From Escherichia phage SSBS18_WS_10_728: a stretch of DNA of 64,000 bases. The notes beneath the pieces are model-generated. The model searched no databases, had not been told where the DNA came from, and saw nothing but the letters and a program-made list of their open reading frames with translations. The DNA is taken from sequence record MT322327.1. One strand, written 5' to 3'. This document shows positions 1,482 to 56,123 of the stretch, in pieces (the first letter of the stretch is position 1; each line of letters opens with the position of its first letter). Position numbers and translations under genes: made by a program.

Positions 1482-1502
1482 TAAAAGGGGCTTTATAGCC
1501 CC
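1482..1502 (-). terminator. putative intrinsic terminator/attenuator
   Basis: Hairpin GGGGCTTTATAGCCCC followed on minus strand by U-run. Confidence 0.4.
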
Positions 1503-36352: not shown

Positions 36353-36901
36353 ATGGAAAAAGATAATTTAAAAGATGTTGAAGGTAACTATCTAGTTCTT
36401 GACTGGAGTGATGCTCAAGAAGCACTCTCTGAAGAAAGCCTTGACAGATTAAAACAGATTGTTTTTGCAGTACGGAGTTACAGAGAAGTTAAAAATGGTA
36501 AAGACCCACTTGAAGGAGTCTTTGTAGAGAAGTCTTATCCGTTCTATGAAGACACTTTACAGAAAGTTAAGATGTACTTTAGACAGAAGAACCGTAAAGT
36601 GGTCACTATGGTATCTCTTGGTGGACAGAGTATGTCTGTGATGGAAGATATCAACCCTAAGAGACCGAGTAAAGGTGTTTGTATAAAAATCACAGGTCAT
36701 GAAGAGTATATCTCAGTGGATGACTTTAGTTCATTCTGTAATGGTTCTGCTGTCTTTAATGGGTTCCACTATGATATCCGAGTGTACCCAATCAAGGGAG
36801 ATGATATCATGATGCAGATATTCGATAGTAACAATGGATTTGCTCATTTTTATCAGACAACCAAGTCATCACTGAAGACAGTTCTAGAAACACTGATTTA
36901 A
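36353..36901 (+). CDS. hypothetical protein
   Basis: ORF-track ORF 36308..36901; start placed at internal ATG 36353 to avoid overlap; start uncertain. Confidence 0.35.
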   Translation: MEKDNLKDVEGNYLVLDWSDAQEALSEESLDRLKQIVFAVRSYREVKNGKDPLEGVFVEKSYPFYEDTLQKVKMYFRQKNRKVVTMVSLGGQSMSVMEDINPKRPSKGVCIKITGHEEYISVDDFSSFCNGSAVFNGFHYDIRVYPIKGDDIMMQIFDSNNGFAHFYQTTKSSLKTVLETLI

Positions 36902-36911
36902 AATATTTTAA

Positions 36912-36938
36912 GAGCCTCCTTAATTGGGGGCTTTTTAA
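36912..36938 (+). terminator. putative intrinsic terminator
   Basis: Hairpin AGCCTCC-TTAATT-GGGGGCT followed by TTTTT. Confidence 0.5.
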
Positions 36939-36939
36939 T

Positions 36940-38520
36940 TTTTATAAAATTTTATCGGTTGTCCCAACCTCTGGGTCACCATCATATGTGAATAAAATAT
37001 CTATCCTTCTTAACAGCCTTCTTAATCTTACTCTCTATATAGTTATATAGTACTATATAGTATCTTAGTATCTATCTAGTGGTCTTAATAGCACCTCTGT
37101 ATAGCCCTTCTAAACACTCTTCTAACAAGCCTTCTTAACAGCCTATACAATCACCTTAACCATTCCTCTACACCCTCTTAGAAGCTCCTATACACCTCTT
37201 AATCTCTAGGTTAGCTATGATACTCTCTATAGGTGTTCACTAGGAAATACTAAGCCTCTATATAGACTGTTTTAACAAACTTAACAGGAATATCTTTACA
37301 GACCTTATCTCACAAGGTCTAACACGGTACTAACAAGGTATCTTATAAGCCTGTTTATGCCTGTATTTTTAAAAGACTGTCTAGGTAATTATTCAGAATT
37401 TTAAAATTTTTATAAAATAGGACTATCAAGTCATTTTTTAGGGTCTTTGAAGGAACTGAAAAATATCTGTAGAGTTGATTCGGTAGAGCCTACCTCATGA
37501 TGTATATCTGCTTGGTAGCCCTTAACATCCTTGTAACATCCCCTTTGCAGAATTTTAAAATATCATTAACAATCTCTTAACAGTTGCTACATCTTCTTAA
37601 CATCTCTTCAGAGGTCTTAACAGATTCTTAACAGAACTAACAAGAGCTTAACAGTTTTTTAACAAGTGCTGAATAGTCTTTACAGAGGTTTAACAGATGA
37701 CTAACAAGTCCTAAGAAGTTAATTTTAAAGGGTTATTTTGTAAAGATAATTAACAAGTTCCTAACAAGTGTTTAACCTTTTTAACAAGCTATTAACATGG
37801 TCACTATCTCTTGGTCTATAGTTCCCTCTCCCTCTTAGTGACCCTTTAAACATACCTCTTAAAAGCTCTCCATAGCTCTTTGTAAGCTCTTTTAAGTCTC
37901 TTCCTAGTAGTTACACCCCCAACTATACAGAAAGCTATTTATAGGGCTTTACAGGAGCTTTTAAGGCTATGTCAAAGACTCTTACAAGGCTTTTACGTGG
38001 TTTTAACAGAGATTTAACAAGGGGCTAACAAGTTGCTAACAAGTACCTTAAAAGCATAACTATGTAGGGTTTGTTAAGAAATTGTTAAGAAAATGTTAAG
38101 GGGGCTAGCATTTACGTAACTTTATAGCCTCTTTTACGTAACTTTGAAGTAACTTTATAGCCTCTTTTACGTAACTTTATAGCCCCTATAACATACTTTT
38201 TAGTGACTATCAAGGGGGTTGTTTAGTTATTCACAAGATACTAACGAGATGATAAAGCTTACACCCTTATAAGATTCTTTTAAGGCTCTGGTAAGCTTTA
38301 TAAAGGGATTTTAAGGGTGAAGTAATGCAATCCCTTAAGTTAGGTTAAAAAGGCTGTTATAGGGCTTTATAGAGCGTTTTAGTGGTTGCCCTTCCCTTTC
38401 GGGTTATGGGCTTATATTTAAGTTGATTTGATAAAAGGCTATAGAGTAGACTATAGAGTTATTGCTTTTAAGGTCTAGTAAGATTCTGGAAAGGAAAGGG
38501 AAAGGATTTAATAAGACGTA
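36940..38520. repeat. ORF-free repeat-rich region (YTAACAR heptamer arrays, direct repeats)
   Basis: No ORF of 60 aa or more in any frame over ~1.6 kb; more than 20 copies of TTAACAG/TAACAAG and inverse GTTAAG; three copies of TTTACGTAACTTTATAGCC at 38107-38190. Confidence 0.6.
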
Positions 38521-38541
38521 AAAAAGCCCCATTTAAGGGGC
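38521..38541 (-). terminator. intrinsic terminator
   Basis: Hairpin GCCCC-TTAAAT-GGGGC followed by UUUUUU on minus strand, after last gene of small-gene array; second hairpin at 38554-38569. Confidence 0.55.
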
Positions 38542-38580
38542 TGTAAAGGTATCTGGGGCTATTTAGCCCCGTTGCGGCGT

Positions 38581-38829
38581 TTAGTTAGTGCCTTCTTTGT
38601 CGTAGTACAGGGAGACTATTTTTTCACCCCAATAGTGAAAAGTGTAACCATCTTTAAGAACTTCCTGTTTTGTTTCTTTCCAGAACTCATCAGAAGGATT
38701 ATAGTCTTTGATGGTCTGACTGATAAGACCTTTCACCATTTCAAAGGCGTTATCAGTGCCAACAAGGTCAAATTTAACATCCAGAGAGTAGAAGCCGAAT
38801 TCGTTAACAGTTGCGCGAATAGTTGCCAT
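38581..38829 (-). CDS. hypothetical small protein
   Basis: 82 aa ORF preceded by conserved cassette with AGGAG RBS. Confidence 0.45.
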   Translation of the reverse strand: MATIRATVNEFGFYSLDVKFDLVGTDNAFEMVKGLISQTIKDYNPSDEFWKETKQEVLKDGYTFHYWGEKIVSLYYDKEGTN

Positions 38830-38896
38830 TTTAGAATCTCCTAGTTTAAGGACTTTGTTTAGTGGGGAAGGTCATTCCCTCCCGTTGATTAGTAAT
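38830..38896 (-). promoter_or_regulatory. conserved intergenic cassette (type B: stem-loop plus conserved leader and RBS)
   Basis: Coding-strand GGGAGGGAATGACCTTCCCC hairpin then ACTAAACAAAGTCCTTAAACTAGGAGATTCTAAA-ATG. Confidence 0.5.
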
Positions 38897-39160
38897 TTAC
38901 TGCATGTTGGCGTATGTTGCAAGCCTTTTTTCGTTGTATTTTGTAAGAATCTCACAAGATAAAACATCATATTTTGTAATAGCGTTGCCTTTGTCGAGGT
39001 CAAAGAATCCAAATGTTTTACCATCTTTGAAGCCCACAACCTCGTAAGACTCTTTGATGATTTCACCATTGAACAAATCACTTTCGATACGGTGGAATAA
39101 TGCTACATCCTCTTTATCGGTTGCAATCTGTAACAGTGTGGTCAATTCTACGTGTTCCAT
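38897..39160 (-). CDS. hypothetical small protein
   Basis: 87 aa ORF with cassette upstream. Confidence 0.45.
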   Translation of the reverse strand: MEHVELTTLLQIATDKEDVALFHRIESDLFNGEIIKESYEVVGFKDGKTFGFFDLDKGNAITKYDVLSCEILTKYNEKRLATYANMQ

Positions 39161-39221
39161 TTTGAATCTCCAGTTTAGGATTTTATTTAGTGGGGGAGGT
39201 TATCCCCCGTTAAAAGACACT
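39161..39221 (-). promoter_or_regulatory. conserved intergenic cassette (type B variant)
   Basis: Hairpin GGGGGAGG.../CCCCC plus conserved leader. Confidence 0.45.
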
Positions 39222-39752
39222 TTATAGATTCTTGGTTGTCTCGTCAATATCTTTTTCAATATCTTTTAAAGTTTTTTCTAAGTTCTTGATATTGAACGTT
39301 AAACCTTCACCGAGGGTCTGAGAGTAACCGTTAGGACGATGGTCGTAAAGCTCGATATCTTCCACATCGGATAGGCTTACTCTTTCACCATTTGCAGCGT
39401 AGGCCATTGAAACAGTATTTACAGGGGCTTTATAGAACTTGTTTAAGGACTTGATAGAACGTTCGTAAGCCATTTTATAACCGTTTAAAAGGCTTTTAAC
39501 GTGGTTGTGAACGTTTTTACACTCATCCAAGTAAATCCCTAAGAATAGCGGTAATAATTCTGCTACAGCTTGCATAAAGTGAGAGACTACAACTGTTGCA
39601 ACATTACGACGATGAACGTAATAAGCCCCGTTTTCTGATTTAGTGATGGTTGCAAAGTGTACCCCATTGCAGCGAAATTCATAGGTATCTTTAACAGGCT
39701 TAGACATTACAGCATTTGAGCGAATGTAGTTGATAGCTTGAAATTTGTTCAT
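39222..39752 (-). CDS. hypothetical protein
   Basis: 176 aa ORF. Confidence 0.45.
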   Translation of the reverse strand: MNKFQAINYIRSNAVMSKPVKDTYEFRCNGVHFATITKSENGAYYVHRRNVATVVVSHFMQAVAELLPLFLGIYLDECKNVHNHVKSLLNGYKMAYERSIKSLNKFYKAPVNTVSMAYAANGERVSLSDVEDIELYDHRPNGYSQTLGEGLTFNIKNLEKTLKDIEKDIDETTKNL

Positions 39753-39830
39753 TTTTGAATCTCCTAGTTTAAGGACTTTATTTAGTGAGGAAGTTCATTC
39801 CCTCACCGTTGATTAGTAATTTACTTGTTT
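39753..39830 (-). promoter_or_regulatory. conserved intergenic cassette (type B)
   Basis: Same leader and RBS as other copies; followed by ~145 nt extra spacer with two TTGACA boxes on coding strand. Confidence 0.45.
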
Positions 39831-39975
39831 TGATATCTGATTGCAAGCAATTTTTTAAGTTTATCTATAAAGAATCTTTTAAGTTAATCCCTTTTAGATA
39901 AACCCCCTCGAACAAAGTTACCAATGTCAAGGGGTATTGTCAACACTTTTTTAAAAGTTTTTTGTAAGTTATTGA

Positions 39976-40362
39976 TTAACTGATGAATATTTTTTCAGGT
40001 TTTACATAGCTGATACGCTGACTTTTTAGGAGGTCATCCCAGATTAGCGCGGCAATATGAGAATAACCGGATTCACGTAAGAGCTTCATTGCTTTACTTC
40101 TCGTTTCGAATCTGGTTGCATAGTACTCACTATTCAAAACAGTTTTATTCCCTTCGTTATCTGTATGGATAATCTGCATCACTTGAAAGGGGCTGGTATC
40201 CTCGCCTTTGTTCCATTGCTCAAAGTATTTTAGGCACTGCATAGGTGACAGCTTATCGCTTACTTGAGTTGACCAAGATGAATTCTCTTTATCAGTAATT
40301 ACAGTTACATAAGCCATTTTTGAATCTCCTAGTTTAAGGACTTTATTTAGTAGGGAGGTCAT
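39976..40362 (-). CDS. hypothetical protein
   Basis: 128 aa ORF. Confidence 0.45.
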   Translation of the reverse strand: MTSLLNKVLKLGDSKMAYVTVITDKENSSWSTQVSDKLSPMQCLKYFEQWNKGEDTSPFQVMQIIHTDNEGNKTVLNSEYYATRFETRSKAMKLLRESGYSHIAALIWDDLLKSQRISYVKPEKIFIS

Positions 40363-40405
40363 CCCTCCCGTTGATTGACAATTTACAGACTTTTATCAGG
40401 CTTGT
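40363..40405 (-). promoter_or_regulatory. conserved intergenic cassette (type B)
   Basis: Hairpin GGGAGGGATGACCTCCC plus conserved leader and RBS. Confidence 0.45.
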
Positions 40406-40639
40406 CTAGTCTTTTTCAATGATAATTTCATATTGACCATCTACGCTGTCAAAATAGACACCATCTTCATCTTCTGTCTTAAAGTAACATTGTATATCAT
40501 CACTGGCGGGGTAGTCTTGTCTTGCTATCTGACAGACCTGAACGGCATTTTCTTTACTTCCTGTAAACTCCTCAAGCCCTTTAAAATCACATGAATGACC
40601 ATTACAAATAGAAAGGATAAGATAAACGGTTGTCAGCAT
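40406..40639 (-). CDS. hypothetical small protein (possible signal peptide)
   Basis: 77 aa; hydrophobic N-terminus MLTTVYLILSICNG. Confidence 0.4.
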   Translation of the reverse strand: MLTTVYLILSICNGHSCDFKGLEEFTGSKENAVQVCQIARQDYPASDDIQCYFKTEDEDGVYFDSVDGQYEIIIEKD

Positions 40640-40702
40640 GATTGAAGCCCTCTAAATGGCCCTGTGTGGGCCTTAAGTTAAAAGTTGGTGTCTTTGTACT
40701 GC

Positions 40703-41266
40703 TTATCCTAAAAAGTCCTTTAAATTGCGTTCTGTGAGGTTTTCCGTGATTTTATCCAGTAGGTCACAAAACACGGAACTATCACCGCTATTCTGTACAA
40801 TTTTTGCAATACTCAACAAATCATCATCAATATAGCCCAAATTGCGGTTAGTTGTATCAGGTACAAAGAAAGGTGCATACATCGCACTAAATTTTGTTGA
40901 GTGTATGCTAACAATCCAATTTTTATCAAAGTATCCGGTAAAGCTGGCAATTTCGCTCATGTTGTCACAAGAATAATCATCCTCTAGTTCTTCCTCTGGG
41001 ATATCCATTTCAATAACAATCACGTCCTGCGTTTCCATTTGGAAAGCGGCCGTAATAAGCCCCGACTCTAAGGCACTTTGAATGCAGCGTTCACGGATGT
41101 AAGAGTCTTCCTCATCTTCCATACATTCCATTTTGATAACCTTATCCATTGGGTAAACGTAGAAACAATCGTCCATGTAGGAGCAGTTCCAGATACCTTC
41201 CGGCTTGTCGCCACCATTCAGCAGGTTTACAAAGTTTTTCAGAGTAGTTCCGTGATAGCATTTCAT
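40703..41266 (-). CDS. hypothetical protein
   Basis: 187 aa ORF. Confidence 0.45.
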   Translation of the reverse strand: MKCYHGTTLKNFVNLLNGGDKPEGIWNCSYMDDCFYVYPMDKVIKMECMEDEEDSYIRERCIQSALESGLITAAFQMETQDVIVIEMDIPEEELEDDYSCDNMSEIASFTGYFDKNWIVSIHSTKFSAMYAPFFVPDTTNRNLGYIDDDLLSIAKIVQNSGDSSVFCDLLDKITENLTERNLKDFLG

Positions 41267-41358
41267 TTTTGAATCTCCTAGTTTAAGGACTTTGTTTAGT
41301 GGTAAAGCTCTTTATCTGGGGCTTACTGTACAGACTTATAAGCCCCTTGTAAAGTACT
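41267..41358 (-). promoter_or_regulatory. conserved intergenic cassette (type A: TTTACA box, GGGGCTT-loop-AAGCCCC palindrome, leader, RBS)
   Basis: Coding strand TACTTTACAAGGGGCTTATAAGTCTGTACAGTAAGCCCCAGATAAAGAGCTTTACCACTAAACAAAGTCCTTAAACTAGGAGATTCAAAAATG. Confidence 0.5.
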
Positions 41359-41562
41359 TTATCGGTTATTTTTGACAACTTTTAAAACTGCAAGATAACC
41401 TAAGCAATAAGAGTCGCCGAAGAGAGTCCTACCCATGAAAGAATCCTCTTTAATATCCTTTGCAGTGACAGTTTTTTCTACGCCGTGGGAAAGGACTACA
41501 TCGCCAACTTTGATATCTTTGATATGAGTAGTTTCAATGTTTAAACCGTTGATAATAGCCAT
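41359..41562 (-). CDS. hypothetical small protein
   Basis: 67 aa ORF. Confidence 0.4.
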   Translation of the reverse strand: MAIINGLNIETTHIKDIKVGDVVLSHGVEKTVTAKDIKEDSFMGRTLFGDSYCLGYLAVLKVVKNNR

Positions 41563-41662
41563 TTTTGAATCTCCTAGTTTAAGGACTTTGTTTAGTGGGA
41601 AGGTAATTCCCTCCCCGTTGATGTGTAATTTAATCTATCTGAAAACCAGTGTCAACAGTTTT
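41563..41662 (-). promoter_or_regulatory. conserved intergenic cassette (type B variant)
   Basis: Hairpin GGGGAGGGAATTACCTTCCC plus conserved leader and RBS. Confidence 0.45.
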
Positions 41663-42067
41663 TTAGAGTTCTGCATAAATTGCGTCGCAGATATTACGAA
41701 AATCGTGATTTGTTAAGTTACGTTGCAACCATGTTGCGAAAAAGTCAGCGATTGCAAAATTAGCGTCATACTCAACAGATAGCCACACTTTAACAGCAAA
41801 TCGAAACATTTTCAAGTCTAATTCTTTATTCATAACCTTTGATTTGCCTAACATGTCAGCCATCTCATATTGTGCACCGTCTAGCGTGATACCTGCTGCA
41901 ACGTCAGCCAATGAGTTTTTTACGCTTTCAACGTCTAAGATAACACTTTGAATCTTACCAATAATGTTGTGTAATGTTTCGTCCGGTGCTGATGACGTGA
42001 TAACATTAATCCGGTTGACGGTCAAACGCGCTTTTAAGATTGATAACTCACGATTATTAATAGCCAT
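41663..42067 (-). CDS. hypothetical protein
   Basis: 134 aa ORF. Confidence 0.45.
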   Translation of the reverse strand: MAINNRELSILKARLTVNRINVITSSAPDETLHNIIGKIQSVILDVESVKNSLADVAAGITLDGAQYEMADMLGKSKVMNKELDLKMFRFAVKVWLSVEYDANFAIADFFATWLQRNLTNHDFRNICDAIYAEL

Positions 42068-42153
42068 TTTAGAATCTCCAATTTAGGATTTAGTTAGTAA
42101 AGCTCTTTATCTGGGGCTTACTTTATCGAACTATAAGCCCCTTGTAAAGTACT
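42068..42153 (-). promoter_or_regulatory. conserved intergenic cassette (type A)
   Basis: TTTACA, 17 bp spacer, TAAAGT inside GGGGCTTA...TAAGCCCC palindrome, then leader and RBS. Confidence 0.5.
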
Positions 42154-42426
42154 TTATGCTAAATGCAGCTTTTTACCTTTTACCATGATGTAAGTTGATG
42201 CGCTATTACTATAAACATCCTGATAAATTCTGCGCAAACGGCCTTCGTAGTATACTTTCCAACTGGTTGGAATCTTTTTCCCGTATCCTGTAGCAGTTTT
42301 TTGGAGTCCTGCAACTTGCCAATCTAAGATATGTTGTTCGGCTTGTAAATCCTCGAAGTGCATTACACCGTTCACATAGTGACGAAGGGTTACATTTAAA
42401 GTGCGACCGTTGTTAGTAGTATACAT
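42154..42426 (-). CDS. hypothetical small protein
   Basis: 90 aa ORF. Confidence 0.4.
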   Translation of the reverse strand: MYTTNNGRTLNVTLRHYVNGVMHFEDLQAEQHILDWQVAGLQKTATGYGKKIPTSWKVYYEGRLRRIYQDVYSNSASTYIMVKGKKLHLA

Positions 42427-42514
42427 TTTTGAATCTCCTAGTTTAAGGACTTTACTTAGTGGGGAGGTTATTACCTCCCGTTGATTAGTAATTTACTTGT
42501 TTTAAAAACCAAAA
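42427..42514 (-). promoter_or_regulatory. conserved intergenic cassette (type B)
   Basis: Hairpin GGGAGGTAATAACCTCCCC plus conserved leader and RBS. Confidence 0.45.
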
Positions 42515-42847
42515 TCAAGAGGAATTTTTTCGTTTGTTCAATTCTTGGACAATTACAGCGTAATAGTCTTTTAAGTCACTAATATTTAAAGCATTTATCA
42601 GAGAGTTATAATCATCCACTAACTGAAAATCATCTTTGAAAATGTCACTTATCTGATAGGTTTTCGCTTTATATCTGAAGCTCATCTCTAGCCGCTTTAT
42701 TTGCTCATCACTGAGGCGCCCTAGAAAGCTTTCTACAAGGTTATTGCTAACCTGCTGTGTGATTGCCTTATTTGCTAGATTATAGGCTTTATATGCCTTA
42801 TATAGCGCGAAAATGGCAATGATTGCAGTGATACCAGTCATTAACAT
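42515..42847 (-). CDS. hypothetical membrane-anchored protein
   Basis: 110 aa; N-terminal TM helix MLMTGITAIIAIFALYKAY. Confidence 0.45.
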   Translation of the reverse strand: MLMTGITAIIAIFALYKAYKAYNLANKAITQQVSNNLVESFLGRLSDEQIKRLEMSFRYKAKTYQISDIFKDDFQLVDDYNSLINALNISDLKDYYAVIVQELNKRKNSS

Positions 42848-43137
42848 GGTGTTTCCTCTTTACGTGATACTTTGCCATTTACAGTTATCTCATAAGAATC
42901 TAGTAAGTCACTTTTAGATTTTACTGGACTTTTAAAAGTATCATCATAGACATTTACTTGCAATACAGGTTTTTTATATTCCCTGCAACTATTCCATAAG
43001 CAAATCACTACACGACGGCCTTTTATTTTGCCGTGTAACCATTCCATAACATCATGACTATTCCTTGATGTCTCTATAAAATCAATTTTGTTGAGTAATT
43101 TGCTGAGGTTTTCCCTAACTTTATTTGATAATTTCAT
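42841..43137 (-). CDS. hypothetical small protein
   Basis: 98 aa ORF overlapping downstream gene by 7 nt. Confidence 0.4.
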   Translation of the reverse strand: MKLSNKVRENLSKLLNKIDFIETSRNSHDVMEWLHGKIKGRRVVICLWNSCREYKKPVLQVNVYDDTFKSPVKSKSDLLDSYEITVNGKVSRKEETPC

Positions 43138-43228
43138 CTTTGAATCTCCTAGTTTAAGGGTTAATTTGATAAATCTCTTTATCTGGGGCTATCATATCCG
43201 CTTGTTAGCCCCGTGTAAAGAAATCTAT
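43138..43228 (-). promoter_or_regulatory. conserved intergenic cassette (type A variant)
   Basis: TTACAC, 16 bp spacer, TATGAT within GGGGCTAACAAGCGGATATGATAGCCCC palindrome. Confidence 0.5.
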
Positions 43229-43741
43229 TTAGTTCTTAAAGATATTCATCACTGAATCTTTTAATGCTTCCAAGCGTTCTAATACTTCAGATTCTGCGTC
43301 TGCGTTGTTCACTTCCTCTTTTAGTCTGTCATCTAAATCATCGCCGTCACTGTAGCACCAATCGAAAGCATAACCAATATAAAAACTCTCTAAAACCGTG
43401 CTACCGTTTGCATCTACAACTTTCGCGGCAATGTTATACTCTGAAGCCTCTAAATCCCTTTCTAGTTCTTTCTGTAAGCTCGTGTAAGCCTCTTTCGATG
43501 GATTCTCACGGCCTTGTTTTGCATAGTCACTTGAAAGCTGCTTAAGGCTGTAATGTAAAGGGATTGCATATTTAAATTCATTACGCTGACAGTTAAGATT
43601 TTTAATAGTTACACCGCCTTGATGGTCATCTGTAAATTTCCAATTATCAAGGTTATGACTTGCTTCGTAGCAATTAACAGCCTCATAAATGATGGAAAAT
43701 TTTTCTTTTACAACTTCAAAGGTAGCGTCTACAGTTTTCAT
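43229..43741 (-). CDS. hypothetical acidic protein
   Basis: 170 aa ORF. Confidence 0.45.
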   Translation of the reverse strand: MKTVDATFEVVKEKFSIIYEAVNCYEASHNLDNWKFTDDHQGGVTIKNLNCQRNEFKYAIPLHYSLKQLSSDYAKQGRENPSKEAYTSLQKELERDLEASEYNIAAKVVDANGSTVLESFYIGYAFDWCYSDGDDLDDRLKEEVNNADAESEVLERLEALKDSVMNIFKN

Positions 43742-43836
43742 TTTTGAATCTCCTAGTTTAAGGACTTGATTTAGTGGTAAAGCTCTTTATCTGGGGCTTA
43801 AGATATCAACTTTTAAGCCCCTTGTAAAGTACTTTA
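43742..43836 (-). promoter_or_regulatory. conserved intergenic cassette (type A)
   Basis: TTTACA, 17 bp spacer, TATCTT within GGGGCTTAAAAGTTGATATCTTAAGCCCC. Confidence 0.5.
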
Positions 43837-44094
43837 TCAGATTAAATTGCCAGTTAATGATAAGTGCATTTTGTAACCTTGTTTAGTAAACACGTTCACT
43901 TTACCGATGGATTTTACACCTTTAAAGAGGTTATTTGAACTGCGTTTTAAGGTTAACTTTTTATCAGCCTTCACGCCCCATCTTACAGCAGTTTGTTTTC
44001 CGTTGTCAACCACTTTCCCGCCTAACTTTTTCGCCATGATGCGAGCGTCATCACGAGTTTTTGCAGGAACTACAACGTTTTTGATAATAGCCAT
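43837..44094 (-). CDS. hypothetical small basic protein
   Basis: 85 aa ORF. Confidence 0.4.
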   Translation of the reverse strand: MAIIKNVVVPAKTRDDARIMAKKLGGKVVDNGKQTAVRWGVKADKKLTLKRSSNNLFKGVKSIGKVNVFTKQGYKMHLSLTGNLI

Positions 44095-44182
44095 TTTAGA
44101 ATCTCCAATTTAGGATTTAGTGGTAAAGCTCTTTATCTGGGGCTTACTTTATCTAACTATAAGCCCCTTGTAAAGTACTTTA
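44095..44182 (-). promoter_or_regulatory. conserved intergenic cassette (type A)
   Basis: Near-identical to the 42068-42153 copy. Confidence 0.5.
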
Positions 44183-44563
44183 TCAGTTAATTTTGAAAAT
44201 TGTCACATAGCCGTCACTGCCGATTATTTGAGACACTCCAGCTTTTTCCACTGAATAGCCCATATTTTCAAGATGATAAACAGCATCATCATAACCATAT
44301 GCGCCACCCTGATAACGTCTCTTATCGCATCTTATCAGGTTTTTACCACGTCCTGCAAGTGCATTCAGTACGGCTTTTTCACTTGATAGCGTACCATCTA
44401 ACATGGTTGCCGTGTAATGGTTGATTTTATTCCCGTTAATATCATACTTAAAATTGAATGCGTGAACAACAATCAATTTGCCGTTAAATTTTTCATCAAG
44501 TGACTTCTCCAGTGCGTTGCGGAAGTTGTCTTTGTTGATGAATTTCGGTGCACGATAAGCCAT
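44183..44563 (-). CDS. hypothetical protein
   Basis: 126 aa ORF. Confidence 0.45.
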   Translation of the reverse strand: MAYRAPKFINKDNFRNALEKSLDEKFNGKLIVVHAFNFKYDINGNKINHYTATMLDGTLSSEKAVLNALAGRGKNLIRCDKRRYQGGAYGYDDAVYHLENMGYSVEKAGVSQIIGSDGYVTIFKIN

Positions 44564-44651
44564 TTTTGAATCTCCTAGTTTAAGGTTAATGTAGTAAAGC
44601 TCTTTATCTGGGGCTTAAGATATCAGCTTTTAAGCCCCCTGTAAAGTACTT
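44564..44651 (-). promoter_or_regulatory. conserved intergenic cassette (type A)
   Basis: TTTACAGGGGGCTTAAAAGCTGATATCTTAAGCCCC plus leader and RBS. Confidence 0.5.
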
Positions 44652-44858
44652 TTATTTATCGTAGTAGTAAATTGCTGTCTGTCTTGTAAACTTCTTAGTG
44701 TTTCTTGTAAGGTAGCAATTAGAATTAATAGCCGTTTCTACATAGTTGCAATAGTCGGCTTCTGATATTCTGGACCATACGCCACAGATTTTCATGTAAA
44801 AACGTTTTGCCTTTGTGTTAACGTTAGTTGTAACCATTAATTCACGATAGTAAGTCAT
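44652..44858 (-). CDS. hypothetical small protein (first gene of array)
   Basis: 68 aa ORF. Confidence 0.4.
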   Translation of the reverse strand: MTYYRELMVTTNVNTKAKRFYMKICGVWSRISEADYCNYVETAINSNCYLTRNTKKFTRQTAIYYYDK

Positions 44859-45374
44859 TTTTGGATTCTCCAGTTTAGGAAGTGGGCTGGCTTGCCCGTC
44901 TGATGCAAATATTAAATAACCATAGTCAAAGAGTCAATAGGAATTTTAAAAATATTTTTGCAAAAAAAAAAAAAACTGTAATGAAACGGGCGCACGCGAC
45001 TACCACAAAACAGAACTACAATCAAGAATTATTTTTCAATCCGCTACAAATTTTTCTGTTGACTTTTATTTTCAGATGTGGTAGCCTTGTGAGAAATGGC
45101 GACATCCCCACCTGCACCCACCTACCTGCACAATTCTAAAATGATTTTTCTTGCCCGACCTGAGCGGGGTCTGCACGTTTTGAAAATAAAAAAGCTCTTT
45201 GGAGATTATCTGCACAGTTTGAAAATGAATTTTCTCTTTGGAGTTCAAAATTTTCTCTACAGATTTCTCTACAGAACTCTACCTGCACAATTCTAAAATG
45301 AAAAAGCCCTCCTTACCTGAAAAATTTACCAGATAAGAAAGGCTTAGTCTATTGTGAATATTATACAGATTTTC
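44859..45374. promoter_or_regulatory. repeat-rich intergenic control region
   Basis: A14 homopolymer at 44962-44975; 21 bp direct repeat ACCTGCACAATTCTAAAATGA at ~45124 and ~45280; CTGCAC, TTTGAAAAT, CTCTTTGGAG, TTCTCTACAGA short repeats. Confidence 0.45.
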
Positions 45375-46160
45375 TTAGTTCTTTGCGCCTAAAAAGGTAA
45401 CTTCTGGTGAAGAGAAAATTTCCTCAACATTCTCATCAGTTCTTGCATAGATATATGTGTCTGCATCACTGCCAAATGTTACTGCAATTCTGTGATTGCT
45501 CTTCGACAGGTGGGTAACTAGAGCGTTACTTAGAGACATCTTTTCAACCGGAGGGTTACTTTGATGTATCTCGCCTTTTCTTCGTCTGAAGAGGGTAACT
45601 GCATCATCAGTGAACGTTACTACACCTGCAAAGTATTCTGGTTCACAGTAGTTCTTCCAACCTGAGCGTAACTTGTGGTACATCTCCCCTTCGTAGACAT
45701 ACAGATACACATCTACACTCTTCATCACCTGATTAATGATAACGGTAACGGCTTGAGGGTCCAGTCCACCGATACCTGCACCAATCATAGGTAACCCAAC
45801 TTTCTTCAACTGATTCACTTCACAGTATCTGTTAAACTGTTTCAAAGATGACTCTAAAGCACTGTATCGAGCATCTTTACCAGTCTTAAGCTGAGTGTAA
45901 AGGTTAGCTATACGGCCTTGTTTTAAACGTGCTACAGAGAAATTGCCTAGTAAATTCTCACAGGGCTTGTGGCCTATTCCACCTGCATACAGATAAACTT
46001 CTGTATCAGTCTCATATGCTTTTGGGTAAAGTTTAGAAATCTTGTCAGCGATACCTGCACCCATTAAGTTCATACAGTTGCAACCGTGACCGATGACGTC
46101 AAACTTACCTTTATCAAATGCTGCAAAGATATCACCATTGATAATTTTTACAATACCCAT
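45375..46160 (-). CDS. macrodomain protein, TARG1/DarG-like
   Basis: 261 aa; N-terminal GDIF...DVIGHGCNCMNLMGAGIA resembles TARG1/OARD1-type macrodomain signature. Confidence 0.55.
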   Translation of the reverse strand: MGIVKIINGDIFAAFDKGKFDVIGHGCNCMNLMGAGIADKISKLYPKAYETDTEVYLYAGGIGHKPCENLLGNFSVARLKQGRIANLYTQLKTGKDARYSALESSLKQFNRYCEVNQLKKVGLPMIGAGIGGLDPQAVTVIINQVMKSVDVYLYVYEGEMYHKLRSGWKNYCEPEYFAGVVTFTDDAVTLFRRRKGEIHQSNPPVEKMSLSNALVTHLSKSNHRIAVTFGSDADTYIYARTDENVEEIFSSPEVTFLGAKN

Positions 46161-50924: not shown

Positions 50925-51003
50925 CTTATTACTCTCTCTTGTTAGTTAATAAATCATTTTGTAAGGCTATTCTAAGGGGCTTTGAAGCCCCTTGTCAAAC
51001 ACT

Positions 51004-56095: not shown

Positions 56096-56123
56096 AATGG
56101 GGCTTGTAAGCCCCTATAAAGTT

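What the first reader, a model, noticed from the sequence alone, without database searches (positions are those of the whole stretch)
38830..44910. Conserved regulatory cassettes (promoter-like box, palindrome, identical leader and RBS) before at least 13 unrelated small genes
Nearly every intergenic gap in the small-gene array is filled by a 60-100 nt element with a shared leader ACTAAACAAAGTCCTTAAACTAGGAGATTC(A/T)AAA-ATG on the coding strand. Type A copies add TTTACA, a 17 bp spacer, and a variable -10-like hexamer (TAAAGT, TATCTT, TACAGT, TATGAT) sitting in the loop of a conserved GGGGCTTA...TAAGCCCC palindrome. Type B copies carry a GGGAGGG...CCTTCCC hairpin instead. The flanking proteins are not paralogs, so the conservation is not from gene duplication. 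Related GGGGCTT-loop-AAGCCCC hairpins also occur at 1487-1502, 50925-51003 and 56096-56123. This resembles the promoter-early stem-loop cassettes proposed to drive modular gene shuffling in T4-type phages; the palindrome could also be an operator for one repressor.
Basis: seen in the sequence. Interest (0 to 1): 0.7.

Follow-up and report, generated by a model that had tools for sequence, protein, structure and literature searches.

The report
Promoter–hairpin–leader cassettes between phage genes
In this Felix O1-type phage, 13 of 15 small early genes of unknown function each carry a near-identical 60-100 nt unit (predicted host-type promoter, RNA hairpin, shared ribosome-binding leader), and related phages have gained, lost and swapped genes exactly at these units, as was described for "PeSL" cassettes in T4-like phages.

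Summary
The window is a Felixounavirus. The 15-gene array at 38,581-44,858 lies on the minus strand. It holds 6 type A cassettes, 6 type B cassettes and one head cassette.

Type A is TTTACA-N17-TAnnnT. [quoted passage not shown] Pairing is 97% across 54 distinct copies from four phage groups, with compensatory changes and G·U wobbles on the coding strand.

Its hairpin would sit 2-3 nt from the predicted 5' end of the RNA.

Gene gains, losses and replacements in 14 relatives are bounded by cassettes. Junction cassettes are chimeric, and cassette variants move between positions.

The best explanation is PeSL-type expression modules that also act as recombination linkers. Parts were noted earlier without interpretation (Felix O1 repeats 2010; Mordin "SAS-like" repeat 2015). 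No transcript data exist. I rate it a new member of a known kind, of moderate interest.

The parts
44859..44990 (-). Head cassette of the array. TTGACT (44937-44932), N17, TAATAT (44914-44909), then CATCAGAC, the small hairpin GGGCAAGCCAGCCC, the leader variant CTTCCTAAACTGGAGAATCCAAAA, and the ATG of gene A (68 aa).
   Evidence: The same layout heads the array in all relatives.
44564..44651 (-). Type A cassette A>B. -35 TTTACA at 44645-44640, -10 TATCTT at 44622-44617, inner stem GGGGCTTA/TAAGCCCC (44638-44610). The 61-nt extended hairpin core is about 44652-44594. Leader, then ATG at 44563.
   Evidence: E=2.4e-19.
44095..44182 (-). Type A cassette B>C. TTTACA, N17, TAAAGT. Core 44182-44122. 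Short leader allele.
   Evidence: E=2.6e-19.
43742..43836 (-). Type A cassette C>D. TTTACA, N17, TATCTT. Core 43836-43776. Long leader allele.
   Evidence: E=8.7e-20.
43138..43228 (-). Type A cassette D>E, the divergent allele. TTTACA, N17, TATGAT. Inner stem GGGGCTA/TAGCCCC. Outer arms TAGATTTCTTTA / TAAAGAGATTTA carry the compensatory 5-55 U-A pair. Core 43226-43168.
   Evidence: (dG -23.6, z -6.5).
42427..42518 (-). Type B cassette F>G. -35 TTGATT (42518-42513) overlaps the stop codon of F. -10 TAAATT (42495-42490). Then ACTAATCAAC, hairpin GGGAGGTAATAACCTCCC, the long leader, and ATG at 42426.
   Evidence: (E=7.4e-21).
42068..42156 (-). Type A cassette G>H. The upstream stop codon TAA forms positions 1-3 of the element. 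TTTACA, N17, TAAAGT. Core 42156-42097. Short leader.
   Evidence: E=1.5e-19.
41563..41662 (-). Type B cassette H>G'. TTGACA (41655-41650), N17, TAAATT (41632-41627). Predicted start about 41619/41618. Hairpin GGGGAGGGAATTACCTTCCC starts at 41616. Long leader.
   Evidence: E=5.9e-21.
41267..41361 (-). Type A cassette G'>I. The stop codon forms positions 1-3. TTTACA, N17, TACAGT. Core 41361-41301. Predicted start about 41317/41316 (CCCC^AGAUAAAG). Long leader.
   Evidence: E=8.2e-19.
40318..40408 (-). Type B cassette J>K. -35 TAGACA (40408-40403) includes the stop codon of J. -10 TAAATT (40385-40380). Hairpin GGGAGGGATGACCTCCC. Long leader. ATG at 40317 (113 aa; a longer 128-aa ORF that starts inside the hairpin is probably spurious).
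   Evidence: E=1.2e-19.
39753..39846 (-). Type B cassette at the 3' end of the 223-nt K>L gap. TTGCAA (39846-39841), N17, TAAATT (39823-39818). The hairpin GGTGAGGGAATGAACTTCCTCAC is a compensatory variant of the stem. Long leader.
   Evidence: (E=5.6e-21).
39161..39247 (-). Type B cassette L>M. TTGACG (39247-39242, inside gene L), N17, TAAAGT (39224-39219, which contains the stop codon of L). Hairpin GGGGGATAACCTCCCCC. Short leader.
   Evidence: (E=1.6e-13).
38830..38922 (-). Type B cassette M>N. TTGCAA (38922-38917, inside gene M), N17, TAAATT (38899-38894, which contains the stop codon of M). Hairpin GGGAGGGAATGACCTTCCCC with one G·U pair. Long leader.
   Evidence: (E=1.2e-22).
38525..38580 (-). 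Array end. A decayed type A remnant (GGGGCTAAATAGCCCC at 38570-38555, then AGATACCTTTACA) is followed by the only canonical intrinsic terminator of the array (AGCCCCTTAAATGGGGCT + T6, 38542-38525).
   Evidence: The same tail occurs in phiSUSP1, Sf18, allfine and DaR-2019b.
38581..44858 (-). The cargo: 15 small genes of 67-187 aa, named A-N in array order, with the 90-aa and 67-aa genes written G and G'. None has a Pfam domain, and they fall in 15 different PHROGs of unknown function.

Best explanation
Each cassette is a self-contained early-expression module of the PeSL kind.

(1) As DNA it is a promoter for the host sigma70 RNA polymerase. Type A is TTTACA-N17-TAnnnT. Type B is a variable -35 (TTGACA, TTGCAA, TTGACG, TAGACA or TTGATT), N17, then TAAATT or TAAAGT, often built over the upstream stop codon.

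(2) As RNA on the coding strand it folds into a hairpin.
- In type A the 61-nt hairpin encloses the whole promoter: an outer stem TAAAGTACTTTA/TAAAGAGCTTTA, a CAA/AGA internal loop, an inner stem GGGGCTTA/TAAGCCCC, and a 13-nt loop holding the -10. It ends near the predicted start site. It therefore exists only in transcripts that read through from upstream. There it would mark, attenuate or process the 3' end of the upstream message and insulate the modules from one another.
- In type B the hairpin begins 2-3 nt after the predicted start. It would be a 5'-terminal stem-loop of the module's own mRNA, of the kind known to protect against RNase E, as well as an obstacle for read-through RNA.

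(3) A shared A-rich leader with a (U)AGGAG or UGGAG Shine-Dalgarno 8 nt before the ATG gives every cargo gene the same translation start region.

(4) Because 60-100 nt of near-identical sequence flanks every gene, homologous recombination between cassettes deletes, inserts, replaces and reorders genes without disturbing their neighbours, and homogenises the cassettes themselves.

Shown here: the anatomy, base-pair conservation and covariation, strand bias, lineage distribution, cassette-bounded indels, chimeric junctions, and exchange of cassette variants between positions.
Inferred: promoter activity, start sites, what the hairpins do to RNA, and the recombination mechanism.
For: Promoter.
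- All 6 type A sites, 3 type B sites and the head site pass the sigma70 scan on the coding strand. The other type B sites are TTGCAA or TTGATT, N17, TAAATT.
- In 85 type A copies (56 distinct) from 16 sources, extracted without requiring any -10, TTTACA is followed at 17 bp (18 bp in one copy) by TAnnnT in 55 of 56.
- In the 54 of these that were aligned, the -12/-11 TA is invariant inside an otherwise variable loop.
- Felix O1 orthologues of the array genes are maximally transcribed at 5 min (ORF16, 20, 21, 22) or 25 min (ORF17, 19, 23) by RT-PCR (PMC3185647, Table 3).

Hairpin.
- The minimum-energy fold of the 61-nt type A element is the extended hairpin: dG -21.5 to -24.2 kcal/mol, z -5.0 to -6.5.
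- On 54 distinct copies, 97.2% of cells pair, against 32-57% when the partners are slid.
- Compensatory pairs: 5-55 is G-C in 44 and U-A in 9; 18-42 is G-C in 51 and U-A in 3, the latter in an Erwinia phage (GGTG/CACC).
- In the columns that vary on one side only (3-57, 6-54, 17-43, 20-40), the departures are wobble pairs (U·G 25, G·U 8, G·U 2) or a shift from the majority U·G at 6-54 to C-G or U-A; one cell at 3-57 and one at 6-54 fail to pair.
- Coding-strand folds are more stable than antisense folds. Type A: -22.3 against -19.8 kcal/mol, 43 of 54, p=6e-6. Type B: -11.5 against -10.2, 21 of 33, p=0.004. The copies are related, so these p-values are overstated.
- Type B stems differ in sequence but keep pairing: GGGAGG/CCTCCC, GTGAGG/CCTCAC, GGGGG/CCCCC, GGGGC/GCCCC, GGGA/TCCC.

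Shuffling.
- Gene content differs among the arrays of 14 relatives, and the differences are whole genes between cassettes.
- M is absent in dune and allfine, leaving one cassette whose 5' part equals the L>M cassette and whose 3' part equals M>N.
- Felix O1 lacks G'-I-J. Its single H>K cassette has the 5' part of H>G' and the 3' part of J>K. It also lacks B-C, with a single type A cassette in their place.
- ASO1A has an extra 52-aa gene with leader sequence on both sides. Mordin has two tandem type A units with no gene between them.
- 22 of 148 cassettes are closer to another cassette in the same genome than to any orthologous cassette. In adrianh, two positions are identical over 62 of 62 nt.
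- Against DaR-2019b, genes C, G', I, K and N are only 68-78% identical while their upstream cassettes are 85-96% identical.

Distribution. Type A matches 288 phage records at 1843 places. The organisms named are Felix O1-like coliphages, Salmonella, Shigella, Citrobacter and Erwinia phages, apart from single Staphylococcus and Campylobacter records and two records the output did not name; the listed rows are Felixounavirus, Mooglevirus and Erwinia phages (the fetched Erwinia record, Prophecy, carries no Ounavirinae taxonomy line). Type B matches 245 records, including Suspvirus. In IMG/VR the type A geometry occurs only on contigs of 53-94 kb.
Against: - No transcript 5' ends, reporter data or RNA-seq exist for any phage of this group. 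My searches for such work found nothing.
- None of the cassette hairpins is followed by a U-tract, so none is a canonical intrinsic terminator. The only one in the array is at its end.
- The whole array also has one strong head promoter and one tail terminator, which fits a single polycistronic unit.
- -10 hexamers such as TATCTT or TACAGT, and -35 hexamers such as TTGCAA or TAGACA, are mediocre matches.
- The last T of the type A -10 is also a stem base, so its conservation is ambiguous.
- Much of the type A stem never varies (10 of 19 pairs), and covariation rests on few independent events.
- Breakpoints in intergenic DNA are expected anyway, because indels inside genes are selected against.
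- The antisense fold of the commonest allele is almost as stable as the sense fold (-21.0 against -21.5).
Confidence: 0.68

Rival explanations
1. RNA-only reading. The array is one polycistronic early transcript, from the head promoter at 44937 to the terminator at 38542. The intergenic hairpins are processing or stabilising signals, and the promoter-like hexamers are by-products. The type A hairpin would be an RNase III-type site, comparable with the intergenic sites of the T7 early region. The type B hairpin would be a barrier to exonucleases or RNase E.
For: - There is one good head promoter and a single canonical terminator.
- The type A hairpin has about 19 pairs plus a 3x3 internal loop, begins at the upstream stop codon, and is supported by covariation and coding-strand wobbles.
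- The hairpins lack U-tracts.
- From general knowledge, not checked here: T7 early mRNA is cut by RNase III at irregular intergenic hairpins with an internal loop.
Against: - It does not explain the invariant TA at -12/-11 in a variable loop at a fixed 17 bp from an invariant TTTACA in 55 of 56 distinct copies.
- It does not explain why type B keeps a -35-like hexamer exactly 17 bp before TAAATT/TAAAGT even where that hexamer lies inside the upstream coding sequence.
- It is not exclusive of the main explanation. Processing could coexist with internal promoters.
Confidence: 0.15
2. Operator reading. The palindromes are binding sites for one phage-encoded dimeric DNA-binding protein that switches all array promoters off (or on) together. 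The sites would be GGGGCTTA..TAAGCCCC and the two TAAAG-NN-CTTTA repeats that straddle the type A promoter at about -35 and +4 to +15.
For: - The sequence, not just the pairing, of CTTTA/TAAAG and of AGATAAAGAGCTTTAC is nearly invariant from coliphages to Erwinia phages.
- The two local palindromes sit where repressors usually act.
- Early genes must be shut off somehow, and the Felix O1 paper states that temporal control is unknown.
- TRCTTTA resembles the T4 MotA-box consensus.
Against: - The 5-55 double change (G-C to U-A, 9 distinct copies) breaks both local palindromes but keeps the long-range pair.
- In the columns that vary on one side only, nearly all departures are G·U/U·G on the coding strand, which would be A·C mismatches in a symmetric DNA site.
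- Type B stems vary widely in sequence.
- The left arm is constrained anyway, because it is the -35.
- The MotA-box-like sequence lies 19 bp from the -10, not 12±1.
- No candidate regulator was identified. I did not search for one beyond Pfam and PHROG scans of the 15 array proteins and the upstream macro-domain protein.
Confidence: 0.1
3. Translational-regulon reading. The conserved part that matters is the leader, not the promoter or hairpin. It would be a start-associated sequence, like the SAS of cluster K mycobacteriophages, recognised by a phage or host factor. That factor could be a translational repressor, or a RegB-like nuclease cutting at GGAG. It would control all array genes together.
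For: - The leader is the most widely shared block, before 13 genes, always ending 8 nt before the ATG.
- It is conserved in a modified form in Mooglevirus and Suspvirus (CCAACAATCCTAAACTGGAGAATC) and in Erwinia phages (AACAACCCTTATAAAGGAATC).
- The Mordin authors drew the SAS comparison themselves (PMC4611695).
- T4 RegB cleaves early mRNAs in their Shine-Dalgarno sequence (PMC2988021).
Against: - The leader alone shows no significant structure (z +0.5).
- It comes in at least two interchangeable alleles within one genome.
- No Pfam or functionally annotated PHROG family, and so no recognisable nuclease or RNA-binding domain, was seen in the array proteins. The rest of the genome was not scanned.
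- This reading complements the main explanation rather than replacing it.
Confidence: 0.2
4. Selfish-element reading. The cassettes are miniature mobile elements (MITE-like, or targets of a homing nuclease) that spread on their own.
For: There are many near-identical copies with terminal inverted symmetry. Felix O1-type phages carry several HNH homing endonucleases (text).
Against: - All copies lie in one array, in one orientation, and fitted exactly between a stop codon and a start codon.
- None was found elsewhere in the 64 kb.
- The mean number of matching places per related genome (about 6 type A and 5 type B) is close to the window's 6 + 6.
- I did not see target-site duplications in the junctions read.
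Confidence: 0.03

Closest known systems
PeSLs (promoter-early stem-loops) of T4-like phages RB49/phi1, T4/PST and KVP40/nt-1 (Arbiol et al. 2010, PMC2839356; Comeau et al. 2014, PMC4122927)
   Same: [quoted passage not shown]
- A sigma70-like early promoter.
- A GGGG..CCCC-type stem-loop between or over the -35/-10, or just after the -10, with G-T pairs.
- Dense in a block of small ORFan genes.
- Indels and replacements between close relatives end in the units.
   Different: - A different phage lineage (Felix O1-like phages of about 88 kb), with no sequence match to T4-like phages among the organisms named in the blastn searches.
- Only two sharply defined classes rather than five loose ones.
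- A further conserved ~30-nt 5' leader.
- The type A stem-loop extends to a 61-nt hairpin that encloses the entire promoter.
- All copies sit in a single array.
- Promoter activity, terminator activity and mini-circles were shown for PeSLs but not here.
[quoted passage not shown] 2011, PMC3203893)
   Same: - A conserved asymmetric motif containing the ribosome-binding site a few nt before the ATG of unrelated non-structural genes.
- One orientation only.
- Often preceded by an inverted repeat.
- Found at unusually long intergenic gaps.
- Function unknown.
- The comparison was already made for the Mordin 26-bp repeat (PMC4611695).
   Different: - The SAS consensus GGGATAGGAGCCC is unrelated in sequence.
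- ESAS inverted repeats do not support RNA pairing, whereas the hairpins here do.
- Pope et al. report no sigma70-type promoter for SAS/ESAS and only raise transcription initiation as one possible role of the ESAS sites.
RNase III processing hairpins between the early genes of phage T7 (general knowledge, not checked here)
   Same: Intergenic, irregular hairpins of about 20 bp with an internal loop, placed directly after the upstream gene. They would leave a protective 3' hairpin on the upstream mRNA.
   Different: T7 sites do not contain promoters. Cleavage here is untested. A stem of 11+8 pairs is at the short end for RNase III.
Intrinsic (rho-independent) terminators
   Same: A G+C-rich hairpin at the end of a gene. 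The ASO1A GenBank record annotates the type B hairpins as terminators.
   Different: No U-tract follows any cassette hairpin. Only the tail element at 38542-38525 meets the definition.

Membership tests
PeSL-type regulatory cassette | A sigma70-like promoter (-35, 16-18 bp spacer, -10) in each unit | tested here: met
   Ten sites are called by the scan. The remaining type B sites are TTGCAA or TTGATT, N17, TAAATT. 55 of 56 distinct type A copies keep TTTACA-N17/18-TAnnnT.
PeSL-type regulatory cassette | A stable G/C-rich stem-loop placed between or over the -35/-10, or just downstream of the -10, with G-T pairs | tested here: met
   Type A: the stem spans the spacer and the -10. Type B: the stem starts 10 nt after the -10. 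Folds are -9.6 to -24 kcal/mol for the full type A and type B cassettes (-5 to -8 for the small head-type hairpins). 97% of cells pair. Wobbles lie on the coding strand.
PeSL-type regulatory cassette | The unit starts at the stop codon of the upstream gene and ends with the SD and start codon of the next gene | tested here: met
   Stop codons lie 0-7 nt before the element or inside the -35, the -10 or the outer stem. The SD is 8 nt before the ATG.
PeSL-type regulatory cassette | Concentrated in a variable region of small genes without known homologues | tested here: met
   All copies lie at 38.8-44.9 kb. The 15 cargo proteins have no Pfam hit and only PHROGs of unknown function. Gene content varies among relatives.
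PeSL-type regulatory cassette | Insertions, deletions and replacements between close relatives have their ends in the units | tested here: met
   Chimeric single cassettes at the M, B-C and G'-I-J deletions. Indel edges lie in or within 10 nt of cassettes in most cases. Divergent cargo sits between conserved cassettes. Caveat: selection alone also favours intergenic breakpoints.
PeSL-type regulatory cassette | Measured promoter and terminator/attenuator activity; mini-circles formed by recombination between units | not testable with these tools
   This needs reporter fusions, 5'-end mapping and inverse PCR. No published data were found.
PeSL-type regulatory cassette | Common descent with, or sequence similarity to, the T4-like PeSLs | tested here: not met
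   blastn (word size 11) with both cassette types names only Felix O1-like phage groups plus odd records such as Staphylococcus phage SA1, and no T4-like phage among the organisms listed. The similarity is one of design, not detectable homology.
SAS/ESAS of cluster K mycobacteriophages | 13-bp consensus GGGATAGGAGCCC 3-7 bp before the start codon | tested here: not met
   The leader here is CCTTAAACTAGGAGATTC or CCTAAAYTGGAGATTC, ending 4-5 nt before the ATG. Only the AGGAG core is shared.
SAS/ESAS of cluster K mycobacteriophages | ESAS: 17-bp imperfect inverted repeats whose departures do not support RNA pairing | tested here: not met
   Here the departures do support pairing, through compensatory and wobble changes.
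Intrinsic terminator | A G+C-rich hairpin followed directly by a run of U | tested here: not met
   No cassette hairpin qualifies. Only 38542-38525 does.
RNase III processing site (T7 early type) | An irregular hairpin of about 20 bp with an internal loop, between genes | tested here: inconclusive
   The geometry fits for type A, with 11+8 pairs and a 3x3 loop. Cleavage cannot be tested here.
Rfam families | A match to any curated RNA family | tested here: not met
   There are no hits near gathering score in 36.8-45.5 kb.

The most novel reading that the evidence does not exclude
The 61-nt type A element is a dual-coded DNA/RNA signal. The same bases serve as a sigma70 promoter in DNA and, in RNA read through from upstream, as an RNase III-type processing hairpin. 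Cleavage on the 3' side of the internal loop (CCCC^AGA) would create the same mRNA 5' end as the promoter's own start site. Every cargo gene would then yield one uniform monocistronic message, whether it is transcribed from its own promoter or from any promoter upstream. A transplanted gene-plus-cassette would be expressed correctly in any position. Together with type B messages, which carry a 5'-terminal hairpin, this would give two built-in classes of mRNA stability.
Probability: 0.15. Interest if true: 0.65.

Novelty: new member of a known kind. Interest (0 to 1): 0.45.

Why it matters
- It shows that the "regulatory cassette as recombination linker" design, described so far only for T4-like phages, arose independently (no detectable homology) in the Felix O1-like phages, which are used for Salmonella typing and biocontrol. 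It gives a concrete mechanism for the gene-content differences among the roughly 290 sequenced relatives.
- It interprets repeats that were reported without explanation in 2010 and 2015.
- It predicts 13 start sites for a phage whose transcriptional programme is unknown.
- It supplies a compact natural part (promoter + insulator hairpin + leader) and natural "landing pads" for engineering these phages.

Tried and rejected
- A second promoter or a MotA-type middle promoter using the downstream GCTTTAC(C) box. No -10-like hexamer lies at a consistent spacing across the leader alleles. The upstream TRCTTTA lies 19 bp, not 12±1, from the -10. Rejected.
- TAAAGT upstream of the type A TTTACA acting as the -10 of a further promoter. 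Only one of six copies has a -35-like hexamer at the right distance. Rejected.
- Cassette hairpins as canonical terminators. There is no U-tract. Rejected as stated; weaker attenuation is not excluded.
- A leader anti-SD mini-hairpin (UCCU..AGGA). It is predicted but not better than shuffles (z +0.5). Left open.
- Paralogy of the cargo genes as the source of the repeats. Excluded.
- A known RNA family. None found.
- Chaining BLAST HSPs to map breakpoints was noisy, because the repeated cassettes confuse the chain and gapped alignments absorbed some deletions. I relied on gene order and explicit junction alignments instead.
- Comparing cassette and gene conservation showed cassettes only about as conserved as coding DNA overall (0.76 against 0.72 with Mordin). 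This is not a striking excess on its own.
- Two literature searches were badly specified and returned nothing useful.

Full report
**What the window is.** The region matches Felix O1-like phages along its whole length. The best matches are Escherichia phages C600M2 and CL1 at 93.6% identity, and 257 records match in all, mostly Escherichia, Salmonella, Shigella and Citrobacter phages. The array at 38,581-44,858 holds 15 ORFs of 67-187 aa, all on the minus strand. I name them A-N in array order, with the 90-aa and 67-aa genes written G and G'. All cassette sequences below are read on the coding (minus) strand.

**Check of the observation.**
- The leader core occurs 9 times with <=3 mismatches, against 0.01 expected. 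Looser repeat families give 12 copies.
- Reading each gap from stop codon to ATG gives six type A cassettes, six type B cassettes and a head variant, which together serve 13 of the 15 genes.
- F overlaps E by 7 nt, and J has a different hairpin+SD.
- Profile HMMs built from relatives recover all twelve at E<=1.6e-13. Nothing else in the 64 kb matches except a weak half-copy at 51006-50965.
The three outlying short-loop hairpins exist.
- The cargo proteins are unrelated: no Pfam hits, 15 different PHROGs of unknown function, and no similarity in the one pair that my clustering had linked.

**Type B also has a promoter.** Seventeen bp upstream of the conserved TAAATT (or TAAAGT) there is always a -35-like hexamer: TTGACA, TTGCAA (twice), TTGACG, TAGACA or TTGATT. 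In several cases it lies inside the upstream coding sequence or is built over its stop codon. The -10 is followed by ACTAATCAAC and then the hairpin. A start at the usual 7-9 nt would therefore put the hairpin 2-3 nt from the RNA 5' end (inference).

The bases flanking GGGGCTTA..TAAGCCCC are also complementary: TAAAGTACTTTA pairs with TAAAGAGCTTTA across a CAA/AGA internal loop.
- ViennaRNA returns exactly this 61-nt hairpin as the minimum-energy and centroid structure: -21.5 to -24.2 kcal/mol, z -5.0 to -6.5.
- From 16 sources (the window plus arrays fetched from Felixounavirus, Mooglevirus, Suspvirus and an Erwinia phage) I extracted 85 copies, 56 distinct, without requiring any -10. I aligned 54 of them.
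- On that alignment, 97.2% of cells pair, against 32-57% when partners are slid.
- Pair 5-55 is G-C in 44 and U-A in 9. Pair 18-42 is G-C in 51 and U-A in 3, the Erwinia GGTG/CACC form.
- In the columns that vary on one side only, the departures are wobble pairs on this strand (U·G 25, G·U 8, G·U 2) or a shift from the majority U·G at 6-54 to C-G or U-A; two cells fail to pair. 6-54 is U·G in 51 copies.
- Coding-strand folds are more stable than antisense folds for both hairpin types. The difference is small for the commonest allele, and the copies are not independent.
- The 5-55 double change breaks both local TAAAG-NN-CTTTA palindromes while keeping the long-range pair. This argues for a folded single strand rather than two operator sites.

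**The promoter signal inside the hairpin.** TTTACA is invariant. The hexamer 17 bp later (18 bp in one copy) is TAnnnT in 55 of 56 distinct copies, with twelve different middle triplets. The TA at -12/-11 is invariant although the rest of the loop varies. The final T is also a stem base, so it is uninformative. A start 7-9 nt after the -10 falls at CCCC^AGAUAAAG, at the 3' side of the internal loop. The hairpin would therefore not be part of the module's own transcript. It would exist only in RNA arriving from upstream (inference). The upstream stop codon lies 0-4 nt before, or forms, the first three bases of the element.

**What is and is not there for termination.** The scan finds a canonical hairpin+T-run only at 38542-38525, the array end. 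That terminator is preceded by a decayed type A remnant. The cassette hairpins have no U-tract. Rfam has no matching family.

**Comparative evidence for shuffling.** Gene order in twelve arrays, plus phiSUSP1, Sf18 and Erwinia phage Prophecy, differs by whole genes.
- A is absent in AYO145A and SUT_S720.
- An extra 62-aa gene sits before A in allfine, DaR-2019b and ASO1A.
- B is absent in ASO1A. B-C and G'-I-J are absent in Felix O1.
- M is absent in dune, allfine and Felix O1.
- There are extra genes between F and G (ASO1A), between J and K (phiSUSP1, Sf18) and between K and L (Sf18).
- G' is replaced by an 82-aa gene in Mordin, phiSUSP1 and Sf18, and ASO1A has both.

At each deletion exactly one cassette remains, and it is chimeric. 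The dune L>N cassette has the 5' part of L>M and the 3' part of M>N, with a fused leader. The Felix O1 H>K cassette has the 5' part of H>G' and the 3' end of J>K. Mordin has two tandem type A units with no gene between them, and the extra ASO1A gene has leader sequence on both sides.

Cassette variants (loop/-10 alleles, type B stems, long or short leader) sit at different positions in different phages. 22 of 148 cassettes are closer to another cassette of the same genome than to any orthologue. In adrianh, two positions are identical over 62 nt while their orthologues differ by 3-7. Against DaR-2019b, five genes are only 68-78% identical between cassettes that are 85-96% identical.

Caveat: selection against gene disruption would by itself place surviving breakpoints between genes. 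The chimeric junctions and the exchange of variants are the stronger arguments.

**Distribution.** The type A query matches 288 phage records at 1843 places, and type B matches 245 records at 1219 places. Apart from a few odd records, the organisms named are Felix O1-like coliphages, Salmonella, Shigella, Citrobacter and Erwinia phages; listed rows include Felixounavirus, Mooglevirus and, for type B, Suspvirus. The Erwinia phages share only the promoter-hairpin half. That is about 6 and 5 places per genome, close to the window's 6 + 6. An IMG/VR scan for the type A geometry found 46 stretches, all on contigs of 53-94 kb.

**What was already known.**
- The Felix O1 genome paper lists 57-bp and 39-bp direct repeats that are these cassettes. 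It does not interpret them, and it states that temporal regulation and passage of terminators are not understood (PMC3185647).
- Its RT-PCR table places array orthologues at 5 min (ORF16, 20, 21, 22) or 25 min (ORF17, 19, 23).
- The Mordin announcement notes a 26-bp repeat before 8 starts, calls it 'reminiscent of SAS', and gives its role as unknown (PMC4611695).
- GenBank records mark a few of the promoters. In ASO1A, the type B hairpins are marked as terminators placed just after promoters.
- I found no paper applying the PeSL idea to these phages, and no start-site data. The searchable library is limited to open-access papers.

**Comparison with known systems.** The PeSL description fits feature by feature: a stop codon in AT-rich DNA, a sigma70-like promoter, a GGGG..CCCC stem-loop between or over the -35/-10 or after the -10, G-T pairs, SD+ATG, location in ORFan-rich variable regions, and recombination between units (PMC2839356; PMC4122927). 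The differences are:
- the phage lineage, with no detectable sequence similarity;
- the two sharply defined classes;
- the additional conserved leader;
- the extension of the type A stem-loop to enclose the whole promoter.

SAS/ESAS of cluster K mycobacteriophages share the 'conserved RBS motif plus upstream inverted repeat before unrelated genes' layout. They differ in sequence, and their repeats lack support for RNA pairing.

**Most likely mechanism, and how sure.** I put 0.68 on the composite reading: each cassette is an early sigma70 promoter plus a coding-strand RNA hairpin plus a standard translation start region, and the repeated units act as homology for recombination that shuffles genes.
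- The promoter part rests on the conservation pattern and geometry.
- The hairpin part rests on covariation and strand bias.
- The shuffling part rests on junction anatomy and exchange of variants.

What the hairpins do to RNA (attenuation, RNase III or RNase E processing, 3' or 5' protection) is open.

**Verdict.** The finding is real and correctly read. It extends a known design to a new phage group, with some new anatomy, and the functional claims remain untested.

Noticed in passing
window 36,900-38,580: About 1.7 kb without any ORF of >=60 aa lies between convergent gene blocks. It contains repeats of TTTACGTAACTTTATAGCC at 38111-38200. Relatives annotate repeat_regions here, and some GenBank records (mio, dune) begin here, so it may hold the genome ends or an origin.
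   Followed up: no
window 44,990-45,375: The 500-nt gap between the macro-domain gene (45375-46160) and the array head carries three copies of CTACCTGCACAATTCTAAAATGA (45122, 45206, 45279), related TCTGCAC..GAAAAT repeats, and a run of 13 A (+ strand) at about 44967-44979.
   Followed up: no
window 39,847-39,975 (upstream part of the K>L gap): An extra ~130 nt is conserved as far as Suspvirus and Mooglevirus: GTGTTGACAATACCCCTTGACATTGGTAACTTTGTTCGAGGGGG, with twin TTGACA boxes and a CCCC..GGGG hairpin. It could be another strong promoter or a small RNA.
   Followed up: partly
window 40,640-40,702 (I>J gap): This gap has a different module: the hairpin GGCCCACACAGGGCC followed directly by an AGAGGG ribosome site. 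In several relatives the same position has a terminator-like GCCCCTTGTAGGGGCTTTT instead.
   Followed up: partly
window 1487-1502, 50976-50991, 56099-56114: Short-loop relatives of the type A inner stem (GGGGCT-N4-AGCCCC) occur before larger genes. The one at 50,976 fills the spacer of TTGACA-N18-TAGAAT. The other two are followed by T-runs, like terminators, and preceded by TTTACA or CTTTATA.
   Followed up: partly
GenBank GU169904 (Staphylococcus phage SA1), 132610-132710: A 147-kb 'Staphylococcus' phage record carries a type B cassette at 89% identity (6 places). The record probably contains Felix O1-like sequence through mis-assembly or contamination.
   Followed up: no
both outer arms of the type A cassettes (e.g. 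41357-41350 and 41308-41302): TRCTTTA in both arms resembles the T4 MotA-box consensus (a/t)(a/t)(a/t)TGCTTtA. It lies 19 bp from the -10 rather than 12±1, and no MotA/AsiA homologue is reported for these phages.
   Followed up: partly
window 39,976-40,362: The longest ORF for gene K (128 aa) starts at an ATG inside the type B hairpin. The start after the leader gives 113 aa. Some relatives' records (e.g. adrianh_77) use the long form, which is probably an annotation error.
   Followed up: partly
L012 (Erwinia phage Prophecy) 5,650-9,560: The Erwinia relatives have a third cassette form (TTTACA or TTGCAA, then GGGGTTA-N14-TAACCCC, then GTCGAAAC) and a different leader (AACAACCCTTATAAAGGAATC). 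They keep AGATAAAGAGCTTT after the type A hairpin.
   Followed up: partly
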